A stretch of 64,000 nucleotides of DNA. Origin: a virus. The stretch's first letter is position 1. Each line of letters opens with the position of its first letter. The stretch lies in IMG/VR virus record IMGVR_UViG_3300050821_002963, positions 67,525 to 131,524 of that record; one strand, written 5' to 3'. Below, one piece after another: positions 3,611 to 41,764 of this stretch. The notes beneath the pieces are model-generated. The model did no database searches and was not told where the DNA came from. It saw only the letters and a list, made by a program, of their open reading frames with translations. Position numbers and translations under genes: made by a program.

Positions 3611-4062
3611 TGACTGGACTGGAATTAAAAGGTTTGGTAACGGTGAAAGATGGGATTGCGTATATAGACCAGAATCCACTGGTACAAGCTTTGGAACAGT
3701 TCAACGGAAGATATGTAGAGCTGAAGTTCCAGTTTCCGGAAGATGTGAAGTGGGAGATGGATGAAGGCATCAAGCCATTGGTTACTGCTTTGCAGGGTAT
3801 TGGGCTTACGACTTTAAGCAGTTGCGAAGGGTCGGAAGAATATCCTTACTCCTACGTGTCGTTAATCCGGGATAACGCTGGTAAGTATATGACTGAGTAC
3901 TGGCAGCAGACATTACTCGAGTTTGGAAAGAAAAGAGGTTGGAGTCTGGCGCATTATTCGGGAAAAGTTTGGCAGCTGCGGGCAAACGTAAAGAAGACGA
4001 GAGAAGAGATACTTGAGTTCGCAAATAAAATTCGAAAAACTTTCTCAGTTACAGCCAGGTAG
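3610..4062 (+). CDS. Hypothetical protein with a Tyw3-like N-terminal motif
   Basis: 'MDEGIKPLVTALQGIGLTTLSSCEG' resembles the D..I..L...LN.....T.SSC.G motif. Confidence 0.4.
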   Translation: MTGLELKGLVTVKDGIAYIDQNPLVQALEQFNGRYVELKFQFPEDVKWEMDEGIKPLVTALQGIGLTTLSSCEGSEEYPYSYVSLIRDNAGKYMTEYWQQTLLEFGKKRGWSLAHYSGKVWQLRANVKKTREEILEFANKIRKTFSVTAR

Positions 4063-30203: not shown

Positions 30204-30455
30204 ATGAAGGTTATTATCTGGACAACAGATGAGGACGGTAACAAGGAGAAAGCTGGTACGATCTATCTGAATGATGGGAAGGTTGTCCAGAAGATAGTGC
30301 CTGGAAATGAACGTGTGATGAGGATGGTTTGGTCAGAGCCAGTACTGACATCAGCCGGAGACGAGATAGACAGGGAACAGGATTCCGAGAAGTGGTTGAA
30401 GGCATTGCCTTTGAACTACATGGGACACAGATTGAGTGCGGAGCCGGTTGAATGA
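30204..30455 (+). CDS. Hypothetical protein
   Basis: GAGG RBS; coupled to neighbours. Confidence 0.5.
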   Translation: MKVIIWTTDEDGNKEKAGTIYLNDGKVVQKIVPGNERVMRMVWSEPVLTSAGDEIDREQDSEKWLKALPLNYMGHRLSAEPVE

Positions 30456-31609
30456 ACTTAGCTTCTGCTATTTCCATCTACGCCTTTGGCACGGCCGAAG
30501 GGGCTGTGAAGGGATGGGATACAAGAGGGCGTGGCCGTGCACCTAGACCACCAGCAAAGCCTCGTCCTTTCAAAACGGCACCTGGCAAAGCTGGTGGATA
30601 CTTTAAGCCTGGAAGTATTGCTGCTAGACTGTATGAGGATTTGGCAGTGAATCCGGGCAGATGGTTCTCTAGAAAAGAGTTGAGGGAAAAATACCAGGTT
30701 GGTGGCTTGCTACAAGCCTTGATGCAGTTGCAGAGGGCTGGGGTAGAAAAAGGAAAATGGGATATAGAATTCAGGCGGAACAACGGGTTCGTTAGGCTGG
30801 TTCCTAGAATAGAACATAGGCAGGGAGAAGATTCTCCGATTCAGTCTCCAAAGGATAAAAGTCAGGCAGAGTACAATCTTTTTCACATGGCTATTGTGAA
30901 AAAGGATGAGCTGGGTGGCGGCGTAACACCTTCGTACAAAGTTAAGTTGGAAGATGGCAGCGTAGCTGTAATGAAGTATCCCTACAACGGTGTATTCGGT
31001 CCGGCGAGAGATAATATTCCTTTGAAGGGAGAACCGGAGAGGGAAGCGGGAGCCTGGCAAGTAGCGAAGGTAGTGGGCATGCAGGATTTGGTTCCGCCGA
31101 CTGTAGTTAGAGAGGTAGACGGAAAAGCAGCTTCTCTACAGCTATGGACTGGTGGTAGACAGGCAGAAGCTGCGGGCAATCCGTTTGATGGGATGCAAGA
31201 TAGAGCTAGAGTGGCGGCCTTCGATTACGTAATTGGCAATGAGGATAGGCACAAAGGCAACTGGTTGGTTGATAATGAAGGAAAGATACATCTTATTGAC
31301 CATGGTCTATCTTTTCCGCAAGGACAGTGGAACGCGAAATTCAACTCCAAGTTCGTAAGAAGGATGGCAGAGCAGGAAGATATATCGGAGCAGTATAAAC
31401 CAAAAGTACAGGGGCAAGTATTCTCCGAGAATCAAGAAAAGATAGTCTCAGCCCTAAAAGGTGTTGGCTTGGGACAAGATGAGATACGTGGAGTAAAGGA
31501 AAGAATTGCTAATATGGCAGCCGCGAAAGAGTGGGACGACCTTCCAGAACTAAAGCGGAGAGGAATTGGGAGAGGACAGGGTAGGCCTTGGGCTAAGGGT
31601 GGCGACTAG
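30452..31609 (+). CDS. HipA/PI3-PI4-kinase-like protein kinase with leader and winged-helix-like domain
   Basis: 'GGGVT', 'AVMK', 'EREAGAW', 'FDYVIGNEDRHKGNWL', 'LIDHGLSF'. Confidence 0.8.
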   Translation: MNLASAISIYAFGTAEGAVKGWDTRGRGRAPRPPAKPRPFKTAPGKAGGYFKPGSIAARLYEDLAVNPGRWFSRKELREKYQVGGLLQALMQLQRAGVEKGKWDIEFRRNNGFVRLVPRIEHRQGEDSPIQSPKDKSQAEYNLFHMAIVKKDELGGGVTPSYKVKLEDGSVAVMKYPYNGVFGPARDNIPLKGEPEREAGAWQVAKVVGMQDLVPPTVVREVDGKAASLQLWTGGRQAEAAGNPFDGMQDRARVAAFDYVIGNEDRHKGNWLVDNEGKIHLIDHGLSFPQGQWNAKFNSKFVRRMAEQEDISEQYKPKVQGQVFSENQEKIVSALKGVGLGQDEIRGVKERIANMAAAKEWDDLPELKRRGIGRGQGRPWAKGGD

Positions 31610-32316
31610 TGATTTCGCAAACAGACATTGTGCTTCCGGTTCACGACGCTCTGGATTACACACAAGCTTGTGTGGATTCGGTGTTCAAGCATACGCCCGC
31701 ATTGAACAGGCTGATAATCGTGGACGACCACAGCGACATAGTAACGACAGCGTATCTGCTGAGTGTGTTGGTGAATCATCCTTCGACACTGTATATCAGG
31801 ACAGGGACTCAGCGTTGGTTTACGAGAGCTAGTAACTTGGGTTTGCGGTTAGTGCGGACACAGAGATGCGTATTACTCAATTCAGATTGTGTGGTGGACC
31901 GTGACTGGCTCGAAGAAATGTATGCCGTTTGGGATGAATACAGTACAACGAGACCTGAAAGAAAAGTTGGTCTCGTTGGGTCGCACCAATCTGGTGAAGA
32001 GCCCCGTAGGTGGGGCGAATACCAGGAACCTGGATACGTCACTGGGCATGCTTTACTTCTTGATGTTCCGGTGCTTTCAGAAATGTCAGAGCGACGCGGA
32101 ATGTGCGGATGGTATCTAGATGAAGTGAACACCAATGCGATACACATTAATTCAGATAGGTTTCTTAGCTACGAATTGAATAGGGCTGGCTACGCAACGA
32201 TAGCTTCTTTCAAAGCGGCAGTCGGCCATCATGGCGGGAAGAGTTGGGGGCATAATCTGGGTAGAATAGCCTCGTTAAGAATAACGGACCAGTTGAAGGG
32301 TGAAGTTGTTGGATGA
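31609..32316 (+). CDS. GT2 glycosyltransferase
   Basis: 'DIVLPVHD', 'IIVDDHS', 'FTRASNLG', 'LLNSDC'. Confidence 0.85.
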   Translation: MISQTDIVLPVHDALDYTQACVDSVFKHTPALNRLIIVDDHSDIVTTAYLLSVLVNHPSTLYIRTGTQRWFTRASNLGLRLVRTQRCVLLNSDCVVDRDWLEEMYAVWDEYSTTRPERKVGLVGSHQSGEEPRRWGEYQEPGYVTGHALLLDVPVLSEMSERRGMCGWYLDEVNTNAIHINSDRFLSYELNRAGYATIASFKAAVGHHGGKSWGHNLGRIASLRITDQLKGEVVG

Positions 32317-32345
32317 TTCTTGTATAATAAGCATGGAGGGAAGAG

Positions 32346-32780
32346 ATGGCGGTATACGAAAGAACGTACGAGCTTACCAGTTGTCATTTTAACGGCGAAT
32401 CAGTCTACAAAGACTACTACGAAGCTCAAGAAGCAGCCAAGGCAGGGGACTTCACGAAAGCATATGCCCTGTTGCTAGCTGTCCTACCAGCAAGTCACGG
32501 ACACAATTTCAAAGTAAAGATAACGGCAACTGGTTTGATAGACATCAAGACGGGCTACGTTATTGACGATTACGAATTGGAGAAGATGATTCGTAAGTAC
32601 GATAATGTAAATCTGTCAACGTTGGAAGAGTTTGGTGGGGCTGGTGTCAGGGCCACGACAGAAAATCTAGCTGTAACGTTCTGGCACATGATAAAAGAAT
32701 GTTTTCCAAAGTGCCGAGTGCAAGTGGATGTATGGGAGACAGAGCAAATCTGTGCCAGATATGGAGATTCAGTCGAATGA
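32346..32780 (+). CDS. Divergent QueD/PTPS-family protein
   Basis: 'SCHF', 'HGHNFKV', 'GYVID', 'TTENLA', 'VWETE'; GGAGG RBS and TATAAT at 32323-32328. Confidence 0.75.
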   Translation: MAVYERTYELTSCHFNGESVYKDYYEAQEAAKAGDFTKAYALLLAVLPASHGHNFKVKITATGLIDIKTGYVIDDYELEKMIRKYDNVNLSTLEEFGGAGVRATTENLAVTFWHMIKECFPKCRVQVDVWETEQICARYGDSVE

Positions 32781-33625
32781 AAATAGACTTGACAGCGATG
32801 CCATCGGGGGAACGGTACGAAGACAGGTACGGAGCGTACATGGCTATCTTTAAGCAGATAACCGAGTGCAACGATGAGTTGGTGTACGTGAAGAACCCCC
32901 CGGCTTCCTGGATTCCGTTGTTGAAGTATTTGAACTGTACAGTCTATGGCGTCCAGTTCTATTTCGAGCATGACGATATGGTTTCGCTCGTGAGGGGGTA
33001 CCCCCACGACAGGACAGCAGTAGAAGTTCTTTGCGGATTCCGGCCGGAGACGGTAGACGCTCTTTGGAAAGTGGATACGCAATGGGAAGTGGCTCCAAAC
33101 AGAAGAAAGAAATCGGAAGGGAAGAAAGAGTTCATCGTCACGAACAATGGCAGTTTCCACAGACAGGAAGTAATAGACTTTATAGGAAACCAGCTGGCTG
33201 AATACAAGCCAAAGAAAAAGAAAGTGGTCTTGGTTCCTTGTGCTGCGGATAAGCCTTATCCTTCCAGAATGCACAAAGCAGTACTTGACAGGATGCCGGA
33301 GGACTACTATCTTGCAAACGCGACGGGAGTGCTGGGGTTGGTGCCGCAAGACCTATGGCCGGTAATGCCGCATTATGATTCGGGGCTCCCGAACGAGTGG
33401 CGGTTACAGCAGCTAGTAAAGAAATATTTCGAGAAATATCGCCACGAGAAGGTAGTGGTCTATTTGGATTACTACTCCAAAGCTGTTAAGCTGGGTTTGG
33501 AACGGGCTGGGTACAAAGAAGAGCAGATGGTGTTTGTGAATCCGGTAATCTTCTATTTCGATTACTTGCCTTTGCACGAAGACGAATACTTGAAGAAACT
33601 GGAAGAAGCTTTCAAGGAGAGTTAG
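32777..33625 (+). CDS. ArcS-like (DUF5591-type) protein
   Basis: 'LVPCAADKPYPSRMH' approximates the archaeosine synthase PCx3KPYx2Sx2H motif; 'LGLVP.DL.....HYD'. Confidence 0.7.
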   Translation: MKIDLTAMPSGERYEDRYGAYMAIFKQITECNDELVYVKNPPASWIPLLKYLNCTVYGVQFYFEHDDMVSLVRGYPHDRTAVEVLCGFRPETVDALWKVDTQWEVAPNRRKKSEGKKEFIVTNNGSFHRQEVIDFIGNQLAEYKPKKKKVVLVPCAADKPYPSRMHKAVLDRMPEDYYLANATGVLGLVPQDLWPVMPHYDSGLPNEWRLQQLVKKYFEKYRHEKVVVYLDYYSKAVKLGLERAGYKEEQMVFVNPVIFYFDYLPLHEDEYLKKLEEAFKES

Positions 33626-33626
33626 G

Positions 33627-34307
33627 ATGAAGCCAACAGCAGTGGTCTTGCTCAGCGGTGGAATGGATTCAGCGGTACTTCTCTGGCATGTGAAAGCAAG
33701 CGGAAAGGTTCCTTTCGCTCTATCCTTTGACTACGGTCAGAGACACGTCTGCGAACTGGAGAGGGCGGCGGAGTTGGCGGAGATTGCGGAAGTGTCATGG
33801 GTGGCAGCAAACTTGCAGCCTATTCAGCCATTGATTTCGAAGGGCTCCCAGACGGGTGTGGATCTTCCACCGGATGGACATTACACAGAGATGTCGATGA
33901 AGACGACTATCGTTCCGAATAGAAACGCCATCATGCTCTCGATAGCGGTTGGGTTTGCCATCGCGCATGAGATGGAGCATGTGTACTACGCTGCGCATGG
34001 GGGAGACCATACGATCTATCCGGATTGTCGGCCAGAGTTCTTCGATGCTTTCAGTCGGGCAATGATATTGGGGAATGGCTGGGACCTAATTAATCTGCAC
34101 GCTCCTTTCATCCACAGGACCAAAGAAGGGTTGGTAAGGCTTGGGACGGAGCTGGGCGTTCCTTTCGAGAAGACGTGGTCTTGCTATAAGGGCAGTGGGC
34201 AGAACCACTGTGGTACTTGTGGAACATGCGTCGAGAGGCGGGAGGCATTCCAATTGGCGAAGGTTCCGGACCCGACTCAGTACGAAGCCGAGTTCGTGAA
34301 AAAATAG
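33627..34307 (+). CDS. queC: 7-cyano-7-deazaguanine synthase
   Basis: SGGMDS, FDYGQRH, VPNRN, YPDCRPEF, TWSCY...CGTCGTC. Confidence 0.95.
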   Translation: MKPTAVVLLSGGMDSAVLLWHVKASGKVPFALSFDYGQRHVCELERAAELAEIAEVSWVAANLQPIQPLISKGSQTGVDLPPDGHYTEMSMKTTIVPNRNAIMLSIAVGFAIAHEMEHVYYAAHGGDHTIYPDCRPEFFDAFSRAMILGNGWDLINLHAPFIHRTKEGLVRLGTELGVPFEKTWSCYKGSGQNHCGTCGTCVERREAFQLAKVPDPTQYEAEFVKK

Positions 34308-34308
34308 T

Positions 34309-34338
34309 TTGCGAATGTGAGACGTGTTCCTGTATAAT
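34309..34338 (+). promoter_or_regulatory. sigma70-type promoter at the head of the RNA island
   Basis: TTGCGA (34309-14), 18 nt, TATAAT (34333-38), 24 nt before the first Y-like RNA. Confidence 0.6.
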
Positions 34339-34361: not shown

Positions 34362-34434
34362 ACTCGGTGGGCCGGATGGTTAGCGTTATCCTTCAAAGAT
34401 AAAAATGCTGGCCAGTAGTCTTTGTCTACCGAGT
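34362..34434 (+). ncRNA. Y RNA-like unit 1 (short; anticodon-loop mimic CUUCAAA)
   Basis: ACTCGGTGGGC(C)GGA pairs with TTTGTCTACCGAGT leaving a bulged C; inner stem; TTATC-CTTCAAA-GATAA hairpin. Confidence 0.75.
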
Positions 34435-34445
34435 AAGATTTTGTG

Positions 34446-34603
34446 GCGTGGGGCCGGATGTGAATCGTTATCAGAGGAACTGCTGCCCGCAAGGGCGTGG
34501 GGGTTCGAGTCCCTTCCCTCCCGACGAATTGACGGGAGGTGGCGGAAAGGTAGACGCGGCAGTAAGCCGAAAGGCATATCGGTTCCAAAAATTAGTCTCA
34601 CGC
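34446..34603 (+). ncRNA. Y RNA-like unit 2 (YrlA-type; permuted class II tRNA-like domain)
   Basis: GCGTGGGGCCGGA / AGTCTCACGC stem; variable arm GCCCGCAAGGGC, T arm GGTTCGAGTCC, loop-closed acceptor stem CTCCCG/CGGGAG, then D arm GGCGGAAAGGTAGACGC. Confidence 0.8.
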
Positions 34604-34624
34604 TTTTAATTCAAGGAGGACGTC

Positions 34625-34936
34625 ATGGATTTTTGCATCTGTAAGGCAAGTAAGGTTTGGTTGCTGAAGAAAGATGGTTGAATCTTCCGGGTGTCTTTCA
34701 GTCGGGCAGTTATCGACTTACTGAGGCGGAAGGTCGGAACGAAGTATCAAATCCAGCGCGGCAAGTTGGTGGTTGGAAAGAAATTGGAAGAGAAAGAAGA
34801 ATCTAGTTCTGGATTGTACGTTGTGGCCAGCACGAAGGATGGTAAGCCATTGAGGGTCGCAACGGATAGGCGGGTTGCGGAAGTGTTGGTGGATGGGCAT
34901 TACAGATATTTGGCAGAGGGCTTTCTACTCCGGTAG
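34625..34936 (+). CDS. 103-codon ORF with in-frame TGA at 34679 (readthrough candidate or pseudogene)
   Basis: AAGGAGGA RBS before ATG 34625; MDFCICKASKVWLLKKDG*IFRVSFSR... continues in frame into ORF 34691..34936. Confidence 0.55.
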
Positions 34937-35002
34937 CTCAACTGGTAGAGCAGTGGCCTTCAAAGCCGACGGGTGCGGGTTCAAGTCCCGCCCGGAGTAC
35001 CA
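34927..35002 (+). tRNA. tRNA with anticodon TCA (opal suppressor-type)
   Basis: 76 nt; acceptor ACTCCGG/CCGGAGT, D arm, loop CTTCAAA, T arm GCGGGTTCAAGTCCCGC, encoded CCA; short variable loop; imperfect top of anticodon stem. Confidence 0.85.
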
Positions 35003-35022
35003 AAAACTTTAAGGAGAACGAA

Positions 35023-35104
35023 CATGGCAAACCTTATAGCGAACACTACTGGAAAGGCCCTTGTGCCTCAGTAGGTACGCTAAACAGAAAGGAGTTTTGC
35101 CATG
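35023..35104 (+). promoter_or_regulatory. Leader hairpin covering the RBS/ATG of 35102, with a 16-codon uORF (35024-35074)
   Basis: CATGGCAAA/TTTGCCATG, TAGCG/CGCTA, CTACTG/CAGTAG pairings; uORF has its own AAGGAG. Confidence 0.6.
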
Positions 35105-35791
35105 CGCCCAGATATGGGGCGGTTGATTATTGAGGATGGAAGAAGGGGAGACGGAGGGCCAAAGACCTGTTACGATAAGATTCGGAGAGTGGGAGAAGAC
35201 TACGAAAATCTCCCCAGCTTCGAATCCACGAGTCGCCACAGAAAACAGGACAGCAACTCACAAGGCGACAGGCTTAACCCTTTGAAGAGGTATTTGGAAT
35301 CACAAGTTGGTCGGCCTTGGTCGGAAGTATTTTCTGAAATCTGTGCGGTGAACGATAAGCGGACGATTCGCGGTTATCATTTGCTAACGCACCTATTTCA
35401 GGATGTAATGGTGGATGGGGTTCAGCGCGGAGACATCGGCGGCTATCAGGATTTTAAAGTTGGACCGGACGGGGTTCTAAGGAAACACGATTGGCGGAAA
35501 ACTCGTCGGTATAGCCGGCCTGAGAAGAAAAAGCAGCCGAAAGTTTTCAAGCTCGGTAATGGATGGGAGTATCAGAAGCTGGAAGGTCTCTGGTTTCGGG
35601 TTCACTATCGGACGGACGAAACGGTGATTCCAGGACACTTCACAGAACGGACTTTCAGCTACGGGAAGAAAGCGGAGTTGAAGTATCGGTATTGGATTAA
35701 CACCCAGGTAAGAACAGATGTGGTCATGGATGTGAAAGTTTCTTGTGGCCAGAAGGACTTGAAAGAGATTAGAAAACTTCTGGCTAAGTAA
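35102..35791 (+). CDS. Basic hypothetical protein in the Ro60/Y RNA island
   Basis: AAGGAG RBS; 229 aa; 'LNPLKRYLESQVGRPWSEVFSEIC'. Confidence 0.75.
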   Translation: MRPDMGRLIIEDGRRGDGGPKTCYDKIRRVGEDYENLPSFESTSRHRKQDSNSQGDRLNPLKRYLESQVGRPWSEVFSEICAVNDKRTIRGYHLLTHLFQDVMVDGVQRGDIGGYQDFKVGPDGVLRKHDWRKTRRYSRPEKKKQPKVFKLGNGWEYQKLEGLWFRVHYRTDETVIPGHFTERTFSYGKKAELKYRYWINTQVRTDVVMDVKVSCGQKDLKEIRKLLAK

Positions 35792-35797
35792 AGGTTA

Positions 35798-35938
35798 AGA
35801 CGCGGGCCGGATGTGGTTGGTTATCGCAAACCAAAGATGTACTTGCGGGTAGCTCAGTTGGCAGAGCCCCCTACGTAGTAGGGTTGACGTGGGTTCGATT
35901 CCCACCCTAAACACCGACTGCGAGATTTGTCTGCGTCT
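35798..35938 (+). ncRNA. Y RNA-like unit 3 (normal-order tRNA-like domain, collapsed anticodon loop)
   Basis: AGACGCGGGCCGGA / TTTGTCTGCGTCT; D arm TAGCTCAGTTGGCAGAGC, CCCTAC-GTA-GTAGGG, T arm GTGGGTTCGATTCCCAC. Confidence 0.8.
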
Positions 35939-35945
35939 AAGTTTT

Positions 35946-36022
35946 GCTCTCGTAACTCAGCGGATTAGAGTGTCAGCCTTCTAAGCTGAAAGTCGTGAGT
36001 TCGAATCTCACCGAGAGCACCA
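35946..36022 (+). tRNA. tRNA-Arg(TCT)
   Basis: GCTCTCG/CGAGAGC acceptor, TCAGC-CTTCTAA-GCTGA, T arm, ACCA. Confidence 0.95.
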
Positions 36023-36111
36023 GCTGTAGTAAGGAGGGCCGGCGGTGTTGAAAGGACACGACAGCGACACCCTCCGTTACAAAGGCTGCTGGTAGTTGAC
36101 GCAGAAGAACA

Positions 36112-36372
36112 ATGAAACTAACAAAAGGACCATTAGCGGGCTACAAAGTTGAGATGGCGGAGGGCGAAAAGACTCGGCAGTATCAGGAAGACGTGGATAA
36201 GCTGGTCAACCTGATGGGTTACGAGTGGGCGTTGGTCACGGACTTGAGTAGAATAGGCGACTTCTACACGGATGAGACAGATGTGGAGATGCTGTCTCTC
36301 AAGTTGGGATTTCCGGTAACACGGAAAGACTATATGTGGGAAGTGGCCATGAGAACGAGGAAAAGTAATTAA
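36112..36372 (+). CDS. Hypothetical protein
   Basis: 86-aa ORF between RNA genes; 'ALVTDLSRIGDF'. Confidence 0.6.
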   Translation: MKLTKGPLAGYKVEMAEGEKTRQYQEDVDKLVNLMGYEWALVTDLSRIGDFYTDETDVEMLSLKLGFPVTRKDYMWEVAMRTRKSN

Positions 36373-36379
36373 AAGTTTC

Positions 36380-36515
36380 TGCTGGGGCCGGACTGAATCG
36401 GTTATCACAGGTTCGAATCCTGTCTCTCAGCTCGAAAGAGTCTATGAGAGACAAGGCTACAGTCGGTGGCAACATCGAAGGGTAGCGTTTCCGATTCGAA
36501 GTATTTGTCTCAGCA
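36380..36515 (+). ncRNA. Y RNA-like unit 4 (T arm plus divergent domain)
   Basis: TGCTGGGGCCGGA / TTTGTCTCAGCA; GAATCGG/CCGATTC; ACAGGTTCGAATCCTGT; CTCTCA/TGAGAG. Confidence 0.75.
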
Positions 36516-36522
36516 TAAGAGA

Positions 36523-36733
36523 TTGCATAGGCCGGAGTTGTGCGTTACCTCAATACATAGAAGGTAGCCGGCTCTTAAGTTGGCTACACACTGGGTTCTG
36601 CCGGCAGTTATTCCGGTGGGCAGGGATAGCCTCCTGTAATTGGCTAGCAAGAGCCAACATCAAAAGTGGAAACCCTTGCGGTCGGCCTCTTATCGGAGAC
36701 TGGCTTTTCGCACAGCAATATTTGTCTATGCAA
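36523..36733 (+). ncRNA. Y RNA-like unit 5 (long, non-tRNA cargo)
   Basis: TTGCATAGGCCGGA / TTTGTCTATGCAA; GTTGTGCG/CGCACAGC; GTTACC variant of the box; several internal hairpins. Confidence 0.7.
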
Positions 36734-36740
36734 ATGAGTT

Positions 36741-36826
36741 GGGTGCCCATTAGGGTTAGCGTAGCCTGGTTTACGCGCTGGGACGCCAGAGACGTTGGTT
36801 CAAATCCAACACCCTGATGGGCATCC
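36741..36826 (+). ncRNA. tRNA-like RNA without an anticodon loop, 16-bp terminal stem
   Basis: GGGTGCCCATTAGGGT/ACCCTGATGGGCATCC; D arm; CTGG-GACG-CCAG; T arm GTTGGTTCAAATCCAAC; no CCA. Confidence 0.7.
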
Positions 36827-36835
36827 TTTAGTTTC

Positions 36836-36961
36836 AGAACGGGCCGGATGAGTTGGGTTATCTACCGAATAGATACGTGGGTTCGAATCCCACCGCCGTG
36901 GTTCCAAGACGGCGTGGCAGAGTGGCTAATGCGCCCCAGCTTGGTTTCTTTTGTCCGTTCT
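36836..36961 (+). ncRNA. Y RNA-like unit 6 (YrlA-type permuted tRNA domain)
   Basis: AGAACGGGCCGGA / TTTGTCCGTTCT; T arm GTGGGTTCGAATCCCAC, CGCCGT/ACGGCG closed acceptor, D arm TGGCAGAGTGGCTAATGC. Confidence 0.8.
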
Positions 36962-36970
36962 AAAAAGTTT

Positions 36971-37115
36971 GAGTGGGCCGGATGTGAATCGTTATCTTGT
37001 AATCTGCGGGTCGGTGGTTCGAATCCATCTAACGTGAATAAAGTAACGTTATAGCTCAGTTGGCAGAGCAGCAGAACCCCGAAAGGGGATTTCGGTTCCA
37101 AATATATGTCCACTC
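36971..37115 (+). ncRNA. Y RNA-like unit 7 (permuted tRNA-Thr(TGT)-like domain)
   Basis: GAGTGGGCCGGA / TGTCCACTC; CTTGTAA-TCTGC, T arm, TAACGT/ACGTTA, D arm TAGCTCAGTTGGCAGAGC, GCAGA. Confidence 0.8.
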
Positions 37116-37128
37116 TTAAGGAAAGGAA

Positions 37129-37200
37129 TCTGGCGGGCCGGTTAGCTACCGTTATCCTCAGGCGATAAAAATGGTGGCGATGTAGTTTATGTCTGCCAGG
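37129..37200 (+). ncRNA. Y RNA-like unit 8 (short; anticodon-loop mimic CUCAGGC)
   Basis: TCTGGCGGGCCGG / TGTCTGCCAGG; GCTACCGT/ATGGTGGC; TTATC-CTCAGGC-GATAA. Confidence 0.75.
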
Positions 37201-37206
37201 TAAATT

Positions 37207-37275
37207 TGGTTGGGGCCGGAGTGGGTTGATTATCCTGAAAAGATAAAAGTCGACCTACGTTATATGTCTAAGCCA
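37207..37275 (+). ncRNA. Y RNA-like unit 9 (short; anticodon-loop mimic CUGAAAA)
   Basis: TGGTTGGGGCCGGA / TGTCTAAGCCA; GTGGGTTGAT/GTCGACCTAC; TTATC-CTGAAAA-GATAA. Confidence 0.75.
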
Positions 37276-37282
37276 TGAAGTT

Positions 37283-37372
37283 TCAGTGGGGCCGGAGCTG
37301 GTTGGTTATCCCATCAAATGAGAAGCGGACTACAATCCGCTTATTATCGACTAGCATTATTTGTCTCACTGA
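37283..37372 (+). ncRNA. Y RNA-like unit 10
   Basis: TCAGTGGGGCCGGA / TTTGTCTCACTGA; GCTGGTTG/CGACTAGC; hairpin AAGCGGA-CTACAA-TCCGCTT. Confidence 0.75.
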
Positions 37373-37399: not shown

Positions 37400-39007
37400 A
37401 TGACGTCTTACTTGAACACAGCAGCAAAGAGAGCTGGAGTAGGGCCGGCGCAGTCGGAACCTTTGAATGAAAGACAAGTTCAGAACTCGGCTGGAGGTTA
37501 TTCCTTCCCAGTCGATATGTGGGTGCAGTTGGACAGGTTCTTGATTCTCGGTACGGAAGGCGGGTCGTACTACGCCAGCGAGAAAAAGCTCACGGACAAG
37601 AACGTTAAGTCCATAAGGGACTGCATCAAGACAGACGGGTTGCGAACAGTAGCCCGCGTAGTTGAGATTTCGGATGCCGGTAGGGCACCAAAGAACGACC
37701 CGGCACTCTTCGTCTTGGCACTTTGCTCCAAGGCGGATGACCAGAAGACAAGAGCTGCGGCTCTGGATGCGCTACCAAAGGTGGCAAGAATTGGTACGCA
37801 CCTTTTCCACTTCGCAGAGTTCAGAACTCAGCTCGGCGGTGGCTGGGGTAAGGGCATGAAGCGGGCCATCTCGAACTGGTATCTGGATAGAAGTCCGATG
37901 TCCCTCCAGAACCAGTTGGTCAAGTACCAGTCGAGAGATGGCTGGAGCCATAAGGACCTGCTCAAGTTGGGGCATGTGAATCCTTCGGAAGTGGCACCGG
38001 AGAAGCGGGTGGCCTTGGCGTGGGCTGCGGATAAGGCCCCACTGGAATTGTCTCAAGTACCTTTGATTGAGGCGTTCGAACGGGCCAAGACTCTGAAAGA
38101 AAAGTCTCAGGAGAAAGAGCTCATTCAGTTGATTACCCAGTATGAATTGACGAGAGAGATGGTTCCGACAGAAGCTTTGAACTCTGCTGCTGTGTGGGAA
38201 GCTCTTTTGGTCAAGATGCCGATTACGGCTTTGATTCGTAACTTGGGGAACATGACCAAGAACGAATTGCTCAAGCCAATGTCGGATGCGTGCAAGACGG
38301 TGGTCAATAACCTTACCAGCAAGGAAGTTCTGAAAGCTGGTAGAGTGCATCCAATCCAGTTGCTTGTGGCACTGAGAACTTATGCGTCCGGGCACGGGAT
38401 GAAGAGTCGTGGAGAAGGTTGGAAGCCTGTCTCAAAGGTGGTGGATGCTTTGGATGAGTCTTACTATCTGGCTTTCGCCAACGTCGAACCTACGGGCAAG
38501 AGATGGTACTTGGGCCTGGACGTTTCCGGTTCCATGTCTGGCGGAAGCATTGCTGGAAGTCCACTGACTCCCTGCGAAGGGGCAGCCGCGATGAGCATGG
38601 TTACGGCCAAGCTGGAAGAAGACTATGAAATCATGGCCTTCGACCAAGGCATCAGGAAGCTTCCTATCACGCCGAAGATGCGTTTGGACGATATCATGAA
38701 GCACACCAAAGACATCAACGGTGGCGGAACAGACTGTGCTTTGCCAATGATAGAAGCGGCGAAGAGAAAAATTCCGGTGGACATGTTTGTGGTCTACACG
38801 GATAGCGAGACGTGGGCTGGGCACATTCATCCGCCCAAGGCGTTGGAGCAGTATAGACAGAAGATGGGCATTCCAGCCAAGTTGGTAGTTTGTGGAATGC
38901 TCGGCAATAACTTTTCCATTGCAGACCCCAATGATGCGGGCATGTTGGACGTGGTAGGTTTTGATACCAACGTGCCCTTGTTGTTGGCGGACTTTGCAAA
39001 GAATTGA
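37400..39007 (+). CDS. rsr: Ro60/Rsr TROVE-domain RNA-binding protein with C-terminal vWA domain
   Basis: 'QVQNSAGGYSF', 'RFLILGTEGGSYY', 'KYQSRDGWSHKDLLKLGH', 'ALIRNLG', MIDAS 'DVSGSM', 'GGTDCALP', 'YTDSET', 'MLDVVGFD'. Confidence 0.95.
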   Translation: MTSYLNTAAKRAGVGPAQSEPLNERQVQNSAGGYSFPVDMWVQLDRFLILGTEGGSYYASEKKLTDKNVKSIRDCIKTDGLRTVARVVEISDAGRAPKNDPALFVLALCSKADDQKTRAAALDALPKVARIGTHLFHFAEFRTQLGGGWGKGMKRAISNWYLDRSPMSLQNQLVKYQSRDGWSHKDLLKLGHVNPSEVAPEKRVALAWAADKAPLELSQVPLIEAFERAKTLKEKSQEKELIQLITQYELTREMVPTEALNSAAVWEALLVKMPITALIRNLGNMTKNELLKPMSDACKTVVNNLTSKEVLKAGRVHPIQLLVALRTYASGHGMKSRGEGWKPVSKVVDALDESYYLAFANVEPTGKRWYLGLDVSGSMSGGSIAGSPLTPCEGAAAMSMVTAKLEEDYEIMAFDQGIRKLPITPKMRLDDIMKHTKDINGGGTDCALPMIEAAKRKIPVDMFVVYTDSETWAGHIHPPKALEQYRQKMGIPAKLVVCGMLGNNFSIADPNDAGMLDVVGFDTNVPLLLADFAKN

Positions 39008-39671: not shown

Positions 39672-39747
39672 TCCCCGATGGTGCAACTGGTAGCATAGCG
39701 GGCTCTGAACTCGCAGATACTTGGTTCGAATCCAGTTCGGGGAACCA
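39672..39747 (+). tRNA. tRNA-Gln(CTG)
   Basis: TCCCCGA/TCGGGGA acceptor, GCGGG-CTCTGAA-CTCGC, ACCA. Confidence 0.9.
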
Positions 39748-41263: not shown

Positions 41264-41764
41264 ATGGAGCTAAGGAAGACGTTTCGGTTTGAGGCTTCTC
41301 ACATTCTCCCAAAGCATAAAGGGAAGTGTTCGCGGTTGCATGGGCACTCTTGGGTGTTGCATGTGTTTGTAAAAGGTCAGGTCAGTAGAGAGACGGGCTT
41401 CGTTATGGATTATGCAGACATCTCTGGGGTAGTCAAGCCGTTGGTAGATAGCTTGGACCATCGGCACTTGGGGGCTTGGACGGATTTGTTTTATAGGCCA
41501 ATGTCGGATTGGCACAGAAACAACATGGTTGAGAACATGCCTGAGGACTTTTATCCCAGCTCAGAGAATCTATTGGTTTGGATTGCTGGTCAGCTGTCAG
41601 GAAGAGACTATCCGTTGCTATGGAGTAAGTTATCTTTGGAAGAGACTTGTACAAGTTACGCCGAGATTACCTACAGCGAGTGGCTCAGTCTTCGTGGGGC
41701 GTCGAAAGCAACAGGAGCGATGGATGGGTGTAAATTCCATGCGGCATTAGGAGAAACATTATGA
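41264..41764 (+). CDS. queD: 6-carboxy-5,6,7,8-tetrahydropterin synthase
   Basis: FEASH, KCSRLHGHSW, GFVMDY, LDHRHL, PSSENL, LEET. Confidence 0.92.
   Translation: MELRKTFRFEASHILPKHKGKCSRLHGHSWVLHVFVKGQVSRETGFVMDYADISGVVKPLVDSLDHRHLGAWTDLFYRPMSDWHRNNMVENMPEDFYPSSENLLVWIAGQLSGRDYPLLWSKLSLEETCTSYAEITYSEWLSLRGASKATGAMDGCKFHAALGETL

What the first reader, a model, noticed from the sequence alone, without database searches (positions are those of the whole stretch)
37129..37275. Short Y-like RNAs present anticodon stem-loop mimics (Leu CAG, Phe GAA; UCA in unit 1)
Seen in sequence: units 1, 8 and 9 (69-73 nt) end in the same 5-bp stem TTATC/GATAA with a 7-nt loop: CTTCAAA (34391-97), CTCAGGC (37157-63), CTGAAAA (37235-41). 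All three fit anticodon-loop rules (C32, U33, purine 37). The unit 1 loop is identical to that of the neighbouring tRNA(TCA). Inference: Ro60-protected decoys for host anticodon nucleases (PrrC/RloC, VapC, PARIS-type effectors), bait for tRNA-modifying or repair enzymes, or ribosome A-site ligands. Known YrlA RNAs mimic the tRNA elbow, not the anticodon loop.
Basis: partly seen in the sequence, partly recalled or inferred. Interest (0 to 1): 0.9.

Follow-up and report, generated by a model that had tools for sequence, protein, structure and literature searches.

The report
Short Y RNAs displaying anticodon-like loops
Three small RNAs encoded beside a phage copy of the RNA-binding protein Ro60 end in a hairpin built like the anticodon arm of a transfer RNA, and the same design recurs in many bacteria and phages, which suggests these RNAs engage something that reads tRNA anticodon loops.

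Summary
Units 1, 8 and 9 of a ten-unit Y-RNA-like array upstream of a Ro60 gene each end in TTATC/GATAA closing a 7-nt loop, at the stated coordinates.

- In 351 distinct units beside Ro60 genes from three collections, 115 carry a hairpin just after the conserved UUAYC box with a 7-nt loop, U33 and R37. Shuffles give about a quarter of that.
- Positions 32, 33, 37 and 38 are conserved. Positions 34-36 are the most variable columns among related units.
- The feature is not universal. About a third of units have it, and 8 of 19 homologues with the window's exact architecture deviate.

TTATC is not a dedicated anticodon stem. It is the conserved YUAY/UUAUC box of Y RNAs. Chen et al. 2014 call the hairpin after it 'V' without noting its anticodon-loop likeness.

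The decoy function is untested. Hughes et al. 2020 already speculated that YrlA may competitively inhibit an anticodon nuclease.

Verdict: a real new variant of a known kind, interest 0.65. Earlier notes of this scan describe anticodon-loop RNAs beside Ro60-like genes in other phages (unchecked here).

The parts
34362..34433 (+). Unit 1, a short Y-like RNA. It has a terminal Ro60-type stem, an upper stem, the UUAUC box (34386-34390), the 7-nt loop CUUCAAA (34391-34397) and GAUAA (34398-34402).
   Evidence: Fold -30.2 kcal/mol, z -4.87.
37129..37199 (+). Unit 8, a short Y-like RNA. UUAUC 37152-37156, loop CUCAGGC 37157-37163, GAUAA 37164-37168.
   Evidence: An exact contig of RNA-library run X2 covers 36942-37168 (this shows presence only).
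37207..37275 (+). Unit 9, a short Y-like RNA. AUUAUC box with UUAUC at 37230-37234, loop CUGAAAA 37235-37241, GAUAA 37242-37246.
34446..37371 (+). The other seven units of the array, at about 34446-34603, 35799-35937, 36380-36515, 36524-36732, 36836-36961, 36967-37116 and 37284-37371. They are long units with tRNA-like parts. tRNA genes and two ORFs are interspersed among them.
   Evidence: Unit 7 scores 31.0 bits to Rfam YrlA (E 4.8e-4, below the gathering score of 69). Rfam tRNA hits lie at 35848-35907 and 36750-36818.
37400..39007 (+). Ro60 (TROVE + vWA) gene, 535 aa, the presumed protein partner of the units.
   Evidence: Pfam PF25045 1e-63 and PF05731 3.2e-42. The best non-self relative is 59% identical.
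34309..34338 (+). Promoter-like site TTGCGA-18-TATAAT (10 of 12) just upstream of unit 1, a possible start of an array transcript.
   Evidence: The total number of promoter-like sites in the region is at shuffle level, so this is only a lead.
34927..35002 (+). tRNA with anticodon UCA, whose anticodon loop CUUCAAA equals the loop of unit 1.
   Evidence: ARAGORN; Rfam tRNA, 67.5 bits, alignment shown.

Best explanation
Units 1, 8 and 9 are minimal Y RNAs. Each has a Ro60-binding handle made of three parts: a terminal stem with the GGCCGG motif, an upper stem, and the conserved UUAUC box. The handle is capped by a hairpin built like a tRNA anticodon arm, with 5 bp and a 7-nt loop of form C32-U33-NNN-R37-N38.

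This anticodon-arm-like hairpin is a selected, recurrent effector module of one clade of bacterial and phage Y RNAs. In long units it sits exactly where a tRNA's anticodon arm sits, followed by a 4-6-nt variable loop and a T arm. In short units it is all that remains of the tRNA-like part.

Inferred mechanism: the Ro60-bound RNA presents the loop to a factor that recognises tRNA anticodon loops, and the variable triplet sets which one. My favoured sub-hypothesis is competition with, or sensing of, anticodon-directed RNases. I give that about 0.25 on its own. A tRNA-modifying or repair enzyme as the partner gets about 0.2.

Shown: the sequences, the predicted folds, the adjacency to Ro60, the family-wide enrichment and the conservation pattern. 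Inferred: Ro60 binding, U-turn geometry, and any partner or function.
For: 1. Anatomy and context.

2. Enrichment of hairpins (stem of 3 bp or more, 7-nt loop, U33 and R37, T-loops excluded) within about 20 nt after UUAYC:
- IMG/VR set: 30 of 105 units, against a shuffle mean of 8.0 (max 16 in 200 shuffles).
- Bacterial genomes: 57 of 150, against 11.5 (max 20).
- Metagenome replicate: 28 of 97, against 6.6 (max 13).
- The stricter Y32-U33-A37 pattern: 19 vs 2.4, 41 vs 2.7 and 23 vs 1.6.
- The mirror control was at or near shuffle level in all three sets (6 vs 7.9, 18 vs 11.3, 8 vs 6.7). The shifted control, run in two sets, gave 10 vs 8.2 and 21 vs 11.8.
- Background 7-nt hairpins elsewhere in the loci: 12.6% U33+R37 and 3.5% Y32-U33-A37, of 33,497.

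3. Strictly defined short units (n=68): a 7-nt loop is the modal best hairpin, 19 of 68, against a shuffle mean of 5.6 (max 12). 16 of 68 are anticodon-like, against 0.6 (max 4). Of the 19 loops, 15 have C32, 18 U33 and 17 R37; position 38 is A in 9 and C in 9.

4. Same architecture as the window (TTATC-loop-GAT..): rule-abiding 7-nt loops with different triplets occur in L053, L229, L247, L251, L254 (two), L269 and L304.

5. Among 11 groups of related units, columns 34, 35 and 36 carry the most changes (11, 9, 9, against flank means of 2.6 and 3.9). Near-identical Verrucomicrobia units differ as UCA, CGA and GCA.

6. tRNA-like statistics over the 115 loops: A34 in only 10%, and G37 associated with G36 (odds ratio 18, p 4.7e-6).

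7. In 13 of the 30 anticodon-like IMG/VR units (11 of them long or of unassigned length; the hits in W 36842 and the short unit L043 2231 are doubtful), a T-loop-type heptamer follows at +9 to +12 nt, as in a tRNA. Minimum-energy folds of L074 5437, L017 5758 and L055 5849 give this hairpin plus T arm, closed acceptor and D arm.

8. Hughes et al. 2020 (PMC7790460, passages) link rsr/Y RNA operons to anticodon-loop damage. They suggest YrlA could competitively inhibit the nuclease.
Against: - Only about a third of units (115 of 351) and about a quarter of strict short units (16 of 68) have the feature. Other short units have loops of 3-6 or 8-12 nt.
- Among the 19 homologues with the window's exact TTATC/GAT.. 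stem, 8 deviate: L001 CTTGGC (6 nt), L236 CTCCAA (6), L231 CTTGC (5), L032 CTGCTCA (C37), L116 TATGGGA (A33), L319 TTGGAAT (U37), L018 (11-13 nt) and L064.
- The shuffle controls ignore relatedness. Units were de-duplicated only at identical 70-mers.
- The flank-versus-loop comparison is biased, because groups were defined by flank identity and U33/R37 were selection criteria.
- Triplets include some that are unusual as bacterial anticodons (A34 forms), so a one-to-one mimic of cellular tRNAs is not shown.
- The best fold of unit 8 closes C32-G37.
- There is no direct evidence for Ro60 binding, for a U-turn, for modification, or for any nuclease or enzyme partner.
- No RNA-repair gene was found in this record.
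- The feature is common in bacterial chromosomes, so it is not specifically a phage counter-defence.
Confidence: 0.55

Rival explanations
1. Vestige. The hairpins are leftovers of the tRNA genes from which these Y RNAs were built (the 'V' stem-loop of Chen et al. 2014). The loop looks like an anticodon loop by descent only and has no anticodon-related function. The short units act merely as Ro60 gates or stabilisers.
For: Long units carry whole tRNA-like bodies, and some units embed complete tRNAs: L009 8023-8097 and L001 1830-1902 lie inside units, as does window unit 3. Normal-order tRNA-like genes with an inserted handle exist in L236. Many short units have lost the 7-nt loop.
Against: Positions 32, 33, 37 and 38 stay constant across Armatimonadota, Verrucomicrobia, Chloroflexota, Myxococcota and phages, while stems and triplets differ. 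Short units that lack every other tRNA part still keep the signature (16 of 68 against 0.6 expected). An unconstrained remnant should have decayed at this divergence.
Confidence: 0.15
2. RNA-RNA kissing loop. The YU-NNN-R U-turn loop presents its triplet for base pairing with another RNA. The target could be the complementary anticodon of a tRNA or a short mRNA site, so that Ro60 and its nuclease partner are guided to specific RNAs.
For: This uses the same loop architecture and the same hypervariable triplet. It would explain why the triplet need not be a normal anticodon. The complement of unit 8's CAG is CUG, the anticodon of a phage tRNA-Gln at 39672-39747. That is 1 of 3 units, which is about chance level.
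Against: Three base pairs are weak outside the ribosome. No complementary partner is enriched. The G36-G37 and low-A34 statistics are properties of tRNAs as protein and ribosome ligands, and are not needed for pairing.
Confidence: 0.15
3. Ordinary YrlB/Yrn2-type hairpin Y RNA. The loop content is irrelevant, and the resemblance of three paralogous loops to anticodon loops is chance plus shared ancestry.
For: Chen et al. 2014 describe Y RNAs that are long hairpins with a small loop. The three window loops are paralogues that share CT after TTATC. 8 of 19 same-architecture homologues break the rules.
Against: Enrichment far beyond every one of 200 shuffles was seen in three independent collections, with control patterns at chance. 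The position-specific conservation points the same way.
Confidence: 0.05
4. Ribosomal A/P-site ligand. The Ro60-bound stem-loop enters the decoding centre and reads codons, for example UGA for unit 1.
For: The loop geometry fits. Unit 1 shares its loop with the neighbouring UGA-reading tRNA.
Against: No acceptor or elbow is present. A 60-kDa ring bound about 13 bp from the loop would probably clash in a 70S ribosome (inference). The same CUUCAAA loop occurs in bacteria with no tRNA(UCA) found in the locus scanned.
Confidence: 0.03

Closest known systems
YrlA (Rfam RF02553; Chen et al. 2014, PMC4201824; Wang et al. 2018, bioRxiv 10.1101/312249)
   Same: Encoded beside Ro60 on the same strand. 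It has a 5' GNCGAA-type motif in a stem formed by the two ends, a conserved YUAY box, and in many members a stem-loop ('V') between YUAY and the T arm. Window unit 7 matches the model weakly (31 bits).
   Different: The short units have no T arm, D arm or acceptor mimic, and give no Rfam YrlA hit. No YrlA hit reached the gathering score in 12 related loci either. YrlA is described as lacking the anticodon loop. Here the hairpin after YUAY has anticodon-loop features, which the sections and passages read do not mention.
YrlB / Yrn2-type Y RNAs (Chen et al. 2014)
   Same: Second, shorter Ro60-bound RNAs encoded in the same locus. [quoted passage not shown]
   Different: Those loops are described as pyrimidine-rich, with no anticodon-like rule. 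The window loops are 7 nt, C-U-NNN-R-N, and not especially pyrimidine-rich.
D. radiodurans Yrn1 'anticodon arm' (Chen et al. 2014)
   Same: A Y RNA modelled with a 5-bp stem in the anticodon-arm position.
   Different: The Yrn1 loop has 6 nt and a different topology. It is a single species, and no conserved U33/R37 pattern is reported.
Nematode stem-bulge RNAs and vertebrate Y RNAs (Rfam RF01656; Kowalski and Krude 2015, PMC4726728)
   Same: Short stem-loop RNAs with a Ro60-type lower stem and a conserved UUAUC motif at the start of the loop domain. Three bacterial short units of this clade score above the RF01656 gathering score (46.9, 42.8 and 40.7 bits against 38).
   Different: These are eukaryotic RNAs with a proposed role in DNA replication. 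Window unit 6 reaches only 20.3 bits and the window's short units give no hit. Homology is not established; the review itself calls bacterial Y RNAs not homologous.
Phage tRNAs that counter tRNA-cleaving defences (for example the T5 tRNA versus PARIS, PMC11464382; search listing and abstract only)
   Same: A phage-encoded RNA with an anticodon loop acting in the conflict over host tRNA cleavage. This is the concept behind the decoy reading.
   Different: Those are complete, functional tRNAs that replace cleaved ones. The units here are 70-nt hairpins with a Ro60 handle and cannot decode.

Membership tests
Bacterial/phage Y RNA (Ro60 partner RNA) | Encoded within about 2 kb of a Ro60/Rsr gene, on the same strand | tested here: met
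   Units 8 and 9 lie 125-270 nt upstream of the Ro60 start at 37400. Unit 1 lies 3 kb upstream, in the same array and on the same strand.
Bacterial/phage Y RNA (Ro60 partner RNA) | GNCGAAN0-1G-type Ro60-binding motif near the 5' end, in a helix formed with the 3' end | tested here: inconclusive
   The window units have GGCCGGA/GGCCGGU, that is G-N-C-G-G-A, one base off the published motif. Relatives have both GGCCGAAG and GGCCGGAG. Terminal stems form in the best folds. Binding itself is not testable here.
Bacterial/phage Y RNA (Ro60 partner RNA) | Physical association with, and stabilisation by, Ro60 | not testable with these tools
   Needs immunoprecipitation or northern blots. Only exact contigs in RNA libraries over parts of the array are available.
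YrlA (Rfam RF02553) | tRNA-like domain with conserved T arm, closed acceptor-like stem and D arm; score at or above the gathering score of 69 bits | tested here: not met
   No hit for units 1, 8 or 9 even at E up to 10. Their apical part is 19-20 nt and holds no T or D arm.
YrlA (Rfam RF02553) | Conserved YUAY after the stem that leads away from the Ro60 site | tested here: met
   UUAU(C) is invariant in 14 of 14 aligned short units. It is present in 9 of the 10 window units as TTATC and in 1 as TTACC. The feature is described in Chen et al. 2014.
tRNA anticodon stem-loop (as a structural mimic) | 5-bp stem closing a 7-nt loop | tested here: met
   UUAUC/GAUAA plus 7 nt in all three units. The best folds of units 1 and 9 keep the 7-nt loop; that of unit 8 adds a C-G pair inside it.
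tRNA anticodon stem-loop (as a structural mimic) | Y32, U33, R37, with A or C at 38 and a variable 34-36 | tested here: met
   The window loops are CUUCAAA, CUCAGGC and CUGAAAA. Across the family's 115 loops: C32 72%, A37 83% and G37 17%, A38 63% and C38 23%, with 46 different triplets. U33 and R37 were selection criteria there. In the unselected 19 seven-nt loops of short units, U33 occurs in 18 and R37 in 17.
tRNA anticodon stem-loop (as a structural mimic) | U-turn geometry and modification at position 37 | not testable with these tools
   Needs probing, structure determination or modification mapping.
Nematode sbRNA (Rfam RF01656) | Score at or above the gathering score of 38 bits | tested here: not met
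   Only window unit 6 gives a weak hit (20.3 bits, E 0.8), and units 1, 8 and 9 give none. Three bacterial short units do pass.

The most novel reading that the evidence does not exclude
A widespread class of Ro60 particles in bacteria and phages carries minimal Y RNAs that display a 'programmable' anticodon arm. The scaffold is conserved (handle, UUAUC box, C32-U33 ... R37-N38) and the triplet is hypervariable. These RNAs would act as specific decoys, competitive inhibitors or damage sensors for anticodon-directed RNases such as toxin-antitoxin, colicin-type and phage-defence nucleases. A phage carrying several of them, as here (UCA, CAG, GAA), would hold a panel aimed at several such enzymes.
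Probability: 0.2. Interest if true: 0.85.

Novelty: new variant of a known kind. Interest (0 to 1): 0.65.

Why it matters
What the tRNA-like part of bacterial Y RNAs is for has been open since 2014. The published picture is a tRNA mimic without an anticodon loop.

A conserved anticodon-arm look-alike on about a third of the Y RNAs in this clade, including 70-nt RNAs that carry nothing else, narrows the search for the partner to factors that read anticodon loops: anticodon nucleases, position-34 or position-37 modifying enzymes, repair enzymes, or the decoding site.

It also ties in with the known link between rsr/Y RNA/rtcBA operons and anticodon-loop damage. And it gives simple, testable reagents: short RNAs with a swappable triplet, present in cultivable Gordonia and Mycobacterium phages.

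Tried and rejected
- Rfam gave no family for the short units. The only entry over them at E up to 10 is a minus-strand noise hit (EBv-sisRNA-1, 14.5 bits, E 8).

After filtering for a closing upper stem, only one further distinct unit remained (L116 = L163). The scan is therefore incomplete and mostly returned chance matches.

- The idea that the mimic triplets copy neighbouring tRNA genes was checked on 20 loci with ARAGORN, and no correspondence was seen. Only the stored flanks were searched, not whole contigs.

- RtcB and RNA-ligase Pfam families were sought in the window's own record and none was found. The record is 82% complete. Pfam scans of 28 window ORFs showed 7-deazaguanine, sugar and methyltransferase genes but no RNA-repair gene.

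- MAFFT alignment A2 of 14 short units is not structure-consistent in its 3' half. RNAalifold recovered only 6 upper-stem pairs from it, so I did not run the count of structure pairs or build a covariance model. A model trained on selected units would also have been biased towards CU loops.

- RNA-library contigs gave no cover over unit 1 or unit 9, and none over unit 8 beyond 37168. Contigs cannot show absence, ends or strand. DNA can be present in RNA libraries, so transcription is not shown.

- Two reviews by Sim and Wolin (PMC10870794, PMC6047535) are not held. They may discuss the 'V' stem-loop. Supplementary files of Chen et al. 2014 (alignments, Fig. S1, S4) are closed and may bear on whether the loop pattern was visible to the authors.

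- The claim 'not in print' rests on searches and on the passages read. It does not cover subscription journals.

- No structure prediction, complex prediction or atlas search was run, because the question concerns RNA.
Full report
WHAT IS THERE

The window is part of a 131.5-kb IMG/VR virus record, 82% complete. Between 34362 and 37371, on the + strand, lie ten repeats of one RNA design. Each has four parts:
- a terminal stem formed by the two ends;
- GGCCGG near the 5' end;
- an upper stem followed by the box (G/A)TTAYC;
- a 3' strand WTGTCY (TTAGTCT in unit 2) that pairs back.

The array ends 29 nt before a 535-aa Ro60 gene at 37400-39007 (Pfam vWA_Ro60 1e-63, TROVE 3.2e-42). tRNA genes are interspersed and follow the gene. 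These are therefore Y-RNA-like genes. Unit 7 gives a sub-threshold match to Rfam YrlA (31 bits, E 4.8e-4, gathering score 69).

Units 1, 8 and 9 are short, about 70 nt. The loops are CTTCAAA (34391-97), CTCAGGC (37157-63) and CTGAAAA (37235-41).

Their folds are better than shuffles: z -4.87, -2.41 and -2.67. The best fold of unit 8 adds a C32-G37 pair inside the loop. No ORF of 50 aa or more overlaps 37129-37275. The tRNA(TCA) at 34927-35002 has the same loop as unit 1.

RELATIVES

No cultured phage is close. 354 phage records hold a Ro60 homologue, all below 60% identity. The best protein relative is 59% identical.

I fetched Ro60 loci with flanks from three collections:
- IMG/VR: 245 relatives, best 80 kept, plus 3 from an earlier call;
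- one genome per prokaryote species: 541 relatives, best 80 kept;
- metagenome contigs: 583 relatives, best 80 kept.

A simple expression for the handle and box (G[GC]CCG[GA], 6-17 nt, [GTA]TTAYC) finds 255 distinct + strand units in the first two sets. It finds only 35 on the strand opposite Ro60. It finds 97 further distinct units in the third set. The GGTTAYC box is present whatever follows it.

For each unit I asked one question. Within about 20 nt after the box, is there a hairpin with a stem of 3 bp or more and a 7-nt loop carrying U at loop position 2 (U33) and a purine at position 6 (R37)? T-loops (TTCRANY) were excluded. I compared the count with 200 dinucleotide-preserving shuffles of the same segments.

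| Set | Units | U33+R37 observed | Shuffle mean (max) | Y32-U33-A37 observed | Shuffle mean (max) |
|---|---|---|---|---|---|
| IMG/VR plus window | 105 | 30 | 8.0 (16) | 19 | 2.4 (7) |
| Bacterial genomes | 150 | 57 | 11.5 (20) | 41 | 2.7 (8) |
| Metagenome replicate | 97 | 28 | 6.6 (13) | 23 | 1.6 (7) |

Controls:
- The mirror pattern (purine at loop position 2, U at position 6) gave 6 vs 7.9, 18 vs 11.3 and 8 vs 6.7.
- The pattern shifted by one position was run in two sets and gave 10 vs 8.2 and 21 vs 11.8.
- The A2/Y6 pattern was run in the IMG/VR set only and gave 8 vs 8.1.
- Of 33,497 seven-nt-loop hairpins elsewhere in the loci, 12.6% have U33+R37 and 3.5% have Y32-U33-A37.

For strictly defined short units (apical part of 45 nt or less, closing upper stem, 3' motif; n=68):
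- The best hairpin most often has a 7-nt loop: 19 of 68, against a shuffle mean of 5.6 (max 12).
- Of those 19 loops, 15 have C32, 18 U33 and 17 R37. Position 38 is A in 9 and C in 9.
- Positions 34-36 use all four bases.
- 16 of 68 are anticodon-like, against 0.6 expected (max 4).

Over all three sets, 115 of 351 units qualify. C32 occurs in 72%, A37 in 83% and G37 in 17%, A38 in 63% and C38 in 23%. A34 occurs in only 10%, and there are 46 different triplets. G37 goes with G36 (10 of 15 against 10 of 100; odds ratio 18, p 4.7e-6). This last figure is not corrected for relatedness. The G36-G37 link is a known trait of bacterial tRNAs; I state that from my own recall, not from a call. Unit 8 (CAG-G) fits it.

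Among 86 distinct hairpin contexts, 11 groups of relatives have 75% or more flank identity. Across these groups, columns 34, 35 and 36 carry the most changes of all 51 columns (11, 9 and 9, against flank means of 2.6 and 3.9). Two caveats apply. Flank similarity defined the groups, and U33/R37 were required.

Near-identical Verrucomicrobia units differ mainly in the triplet: UCA, CGA and GCA.

SAME ARCHITECTURE AS THE WINDOW

I looked at units whose stem is the box itself (TTATC-loop-GAT..).

Eleven obey the rules:
- the three window units;
- L053 (CTTGTAA), L229 (CTTCTAC), L247 (CTGTTAA), L251 (CTTTTAA);
- L254 (CTGTCAC and TTAGGGA), L269 (CTCTCAC), L304 (CTGCGGA).

Eight do not:
- L001 CTTGGC (6 nt; the closest viral look-alike of unit 8);
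- L236 CTCCAA (6 nt) and L231 CTTGC (5 nt);
- L032 CTGCTCA (C37), L116 TATGGGA (A33), L319 TTGGAAT (U37);
- L018 (11-13 nt) and L064 (2 nt between the box and GATAA, so no such hairpin).

U33 is kept in 16 of the 19. The rule is therefore a strong tendency, not an invariant.

WHAT THE HAIRPIN IS IN THE LONG UNITS

In 13 of the 30 anticodon-like IMG/VR units a T-loop-type heptamer follows at +9 to +12 nt. Eleven of these are long units or units of unassigned length. The other two hits, in W 36842 and the short unit L043 2231, are doubtful. The loop is thus followed by a 4-6-nt linker of the AGGUC type and a 5-bp T stem, the layout of a class I tRNA.

Minimum-energy folds of L074 5437, L017 5758 and L055 5849 give a five-way junction: upper stem, this hairpin, T arm, closed acceptor-like hairpin and D arm. 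A conserved CUAAA(A)C linker lies opposite GGUUAYC. Other long units fold differently in that call.

Chen et al. 2014 (sections and passages read) describe the conserved YUAY. [quoted passage not shown] They do not mention any likeness to an anticodon loop. Wang et al. 2018 (passages) state that YrlA lacks the anticodon loop.

So the hairpin is known, but its anticodon-arm character is not in the text I could read. In the short units it is the only thing left on the handle.

Three further points:
- The box equals the UUAUC motif reported at the start of the loop domain of nematode sbRNAs and vertebrate Y RNAs (Kowalski and Krude 2015, passages).
- Three bacterial short units pass the Rfam gathering score of the nematode sbRNA family RF01656.
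- No Rfam YrlA hit at or above the gathering score was found in 12 related loci.

FUNCTION

Nothing here tests function. These facts bear on it:
- The feature is at least as frequent beside chromosomal Ro60 genes of bacteria as in phages. A purely phage counter-defence reading is therefore not needed.
- The loop of unit 1 equals that of the neighbouring tRNA(UCA). The same CUUCAAA loop tops short units in L241 and L283, and no tRNA(UCA) was found in the 9.5-9.6 kb of each locus scanned. No correspondence between mimic triplets and nearby tRNA genes was seen in 20 loci.
- No RtcB or RNA ligase was found in this record.
- Hughes et al. 2020 (passages) link rsr-yrlBA-rtcBA operons to anticodon-loop cleavage. 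They already suggest that the YrlA tRNA-like domain may competitively inhibit the nuclease. The decoy idea is thus in print for YrlA, though not for an anticodon-arm mimic.

I therefore commit to this reading. The short units are minimal Y RNAs whose effector module is an anticodon-arm mimic, presented from Ro60 to an anticodon-loop-reading factor. Confidence is 0.55. A nuclease decoy or sensor is the most likely version, at about 0.25.

The rivals are a vestige of tRNA ancestry (0.15), a U-turn kissing loop for RNA pairing (0.15), an ordinary hairpin Y RNA with a chance resemblance (0.05) and a ribosomal ligand (0.03).

EXPRESSION

A promoter-like site (TTGCGA-18-TATAAT, 10 of 12) lies at 34309-34338, just before unit 1. 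The total count of such sites in the region is at shuffle level.

Two soil metatranscriptome runs from different studies hold exact contigs over parts of the array:
- X2: 35960-36159, 36553-36815 and 36942-37168. The last spans unit 7 and the 5' half of unit 8 through its loop.
- X5: 36877-37113.

Contigs in RNA libraries show presence, not transcription.

NOVELTY AND SCORE

Y RNAs beside phage Ro60 genes are known: Chen et al. 2014, and the Thermus phage phiLo study (PMC12135203, passages). Short hairpin Y RNAs and the V stem-loop are known too.

What I did not find in print is the conserved anticodon-arm signature of that hairpin, its presence as the sole module of about 70-nt Y RNAs, and the hypervariable triplet. 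This rests on searches. Two reviews were not held, and supplements were closed.

Earlier notes of this scan report anticodon-loop-displaying RNAs beside Ro60-like (DUF2828) genes with other handles in at least five other phage genomes. I did not check them. They are leads, not support.

I rate this a new variant of a known kind, interest 0.65.

Noticed in passing
L236:3355-3475, 3613-3734, 3779-3883 (also long tRNA hits in L257, L210, L233, L217): Normal-order tRNA-like genes (Rfam tRNA 50.2, 50.1 and 44.3 bits over the whole model) in which 50-62 nt replace the anticodon-arm region. Read by eye, the insert is a Y-type handle closed by a small loop, followed by an anticodon-like hairpin (for example CCGA-CTTTTAA-TCGG). 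These look like tRNAs carrying a Ro60 handle, the circular permutation of the window's long units.
   Followed up: partly
L267:3120-3194; L210:3369-3438; L210:2534-2605; window 36835-36961: Bacterial short Y-like units score above the gathering score of Rfam RF01656, the nematode stem-bulge RNAs (46.9, 42.8 and 40.7 bits against 38). Window unit 6 gives 20.3 bits. Together with the shared UUAUC box, this hints at a deeper link between bacterial/phage and animal Y RNAs than the literature assumes.
   Followed up: partly
window 34927-35002 and 34625-34936: tRNA with anticodon UCA, which would read UGA (ARAGORN labels it SeC; Rfam tRNA 67.5 bits). I did not examine it.
   Followed up: no
window 36750-36818: tRNA-like gene between units 5 and 6 (Rfam tRNA 43 bits), with only 4 nt where the model's central 9 anticodon-arm positions lie. 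ARAGORN does not call it.
   Followed up: no
window 35848-35907 (inside unit 3, 35799-35937): Unit 3 holds a tRNA-like body in normal order: D arm, a palindromic hairpin in place of the anticodon arm, and a T arm (Rfam tRNA 31.8 bits). Relatives likewise embed whole tRNAs inside units: L009 8023-8097 tRNA-Ile(GAT) and L001 1830-1902 tRNA-Cys(GCA).
   Followed up: partly
window 36967-37116 (unit 7): The heptamer CTTGTAA directly follows TTAT in unit 7. The same loop caps local hairpins in L049 (a long unit) and L053 (a short unit). One anticodon-loop sequence thus appears in three different topologies.
   Followed up: partly
L370 about 2216-2440; L369 about 5191 and 5609; L368 about 2374: Cultured actinophages carry the same design. 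Gordonia phage BearBQ has a long unit TCTC-CTGCTAA-GAGA plus T arm, and a short unit ATCA-ATTTGGA-TGAT. Gordonia phage Sixama has CCTT-CTGCTAA-AAGG plus T arm. Mycobacterium phage I3 has a short unit just upstream of its Ro gene. None of these units is annotated in the records.
   Followed up: partly
window 30452-34307 and 41264-41764: A 7-deazaguanine gene set lies next to the array: QueC 4.3e-57 and a DUF5591 (ArcS-like) protein. A PI3/PI4-kinase-like ORF (30452-31609, 8e-10) and a family 2 glycosyltransferase are also there.
   Followed up: no
L011:9438-12556; L369:4510-4931: Related phages place a tmRNA gene and large tRNA clusters directly downstream of the Ro60/Y-RNA array. L011 has a tmRNA plus 14 tRNAs. 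Sixama has a tmRNA at 88.1 bits.
   Followed up: no
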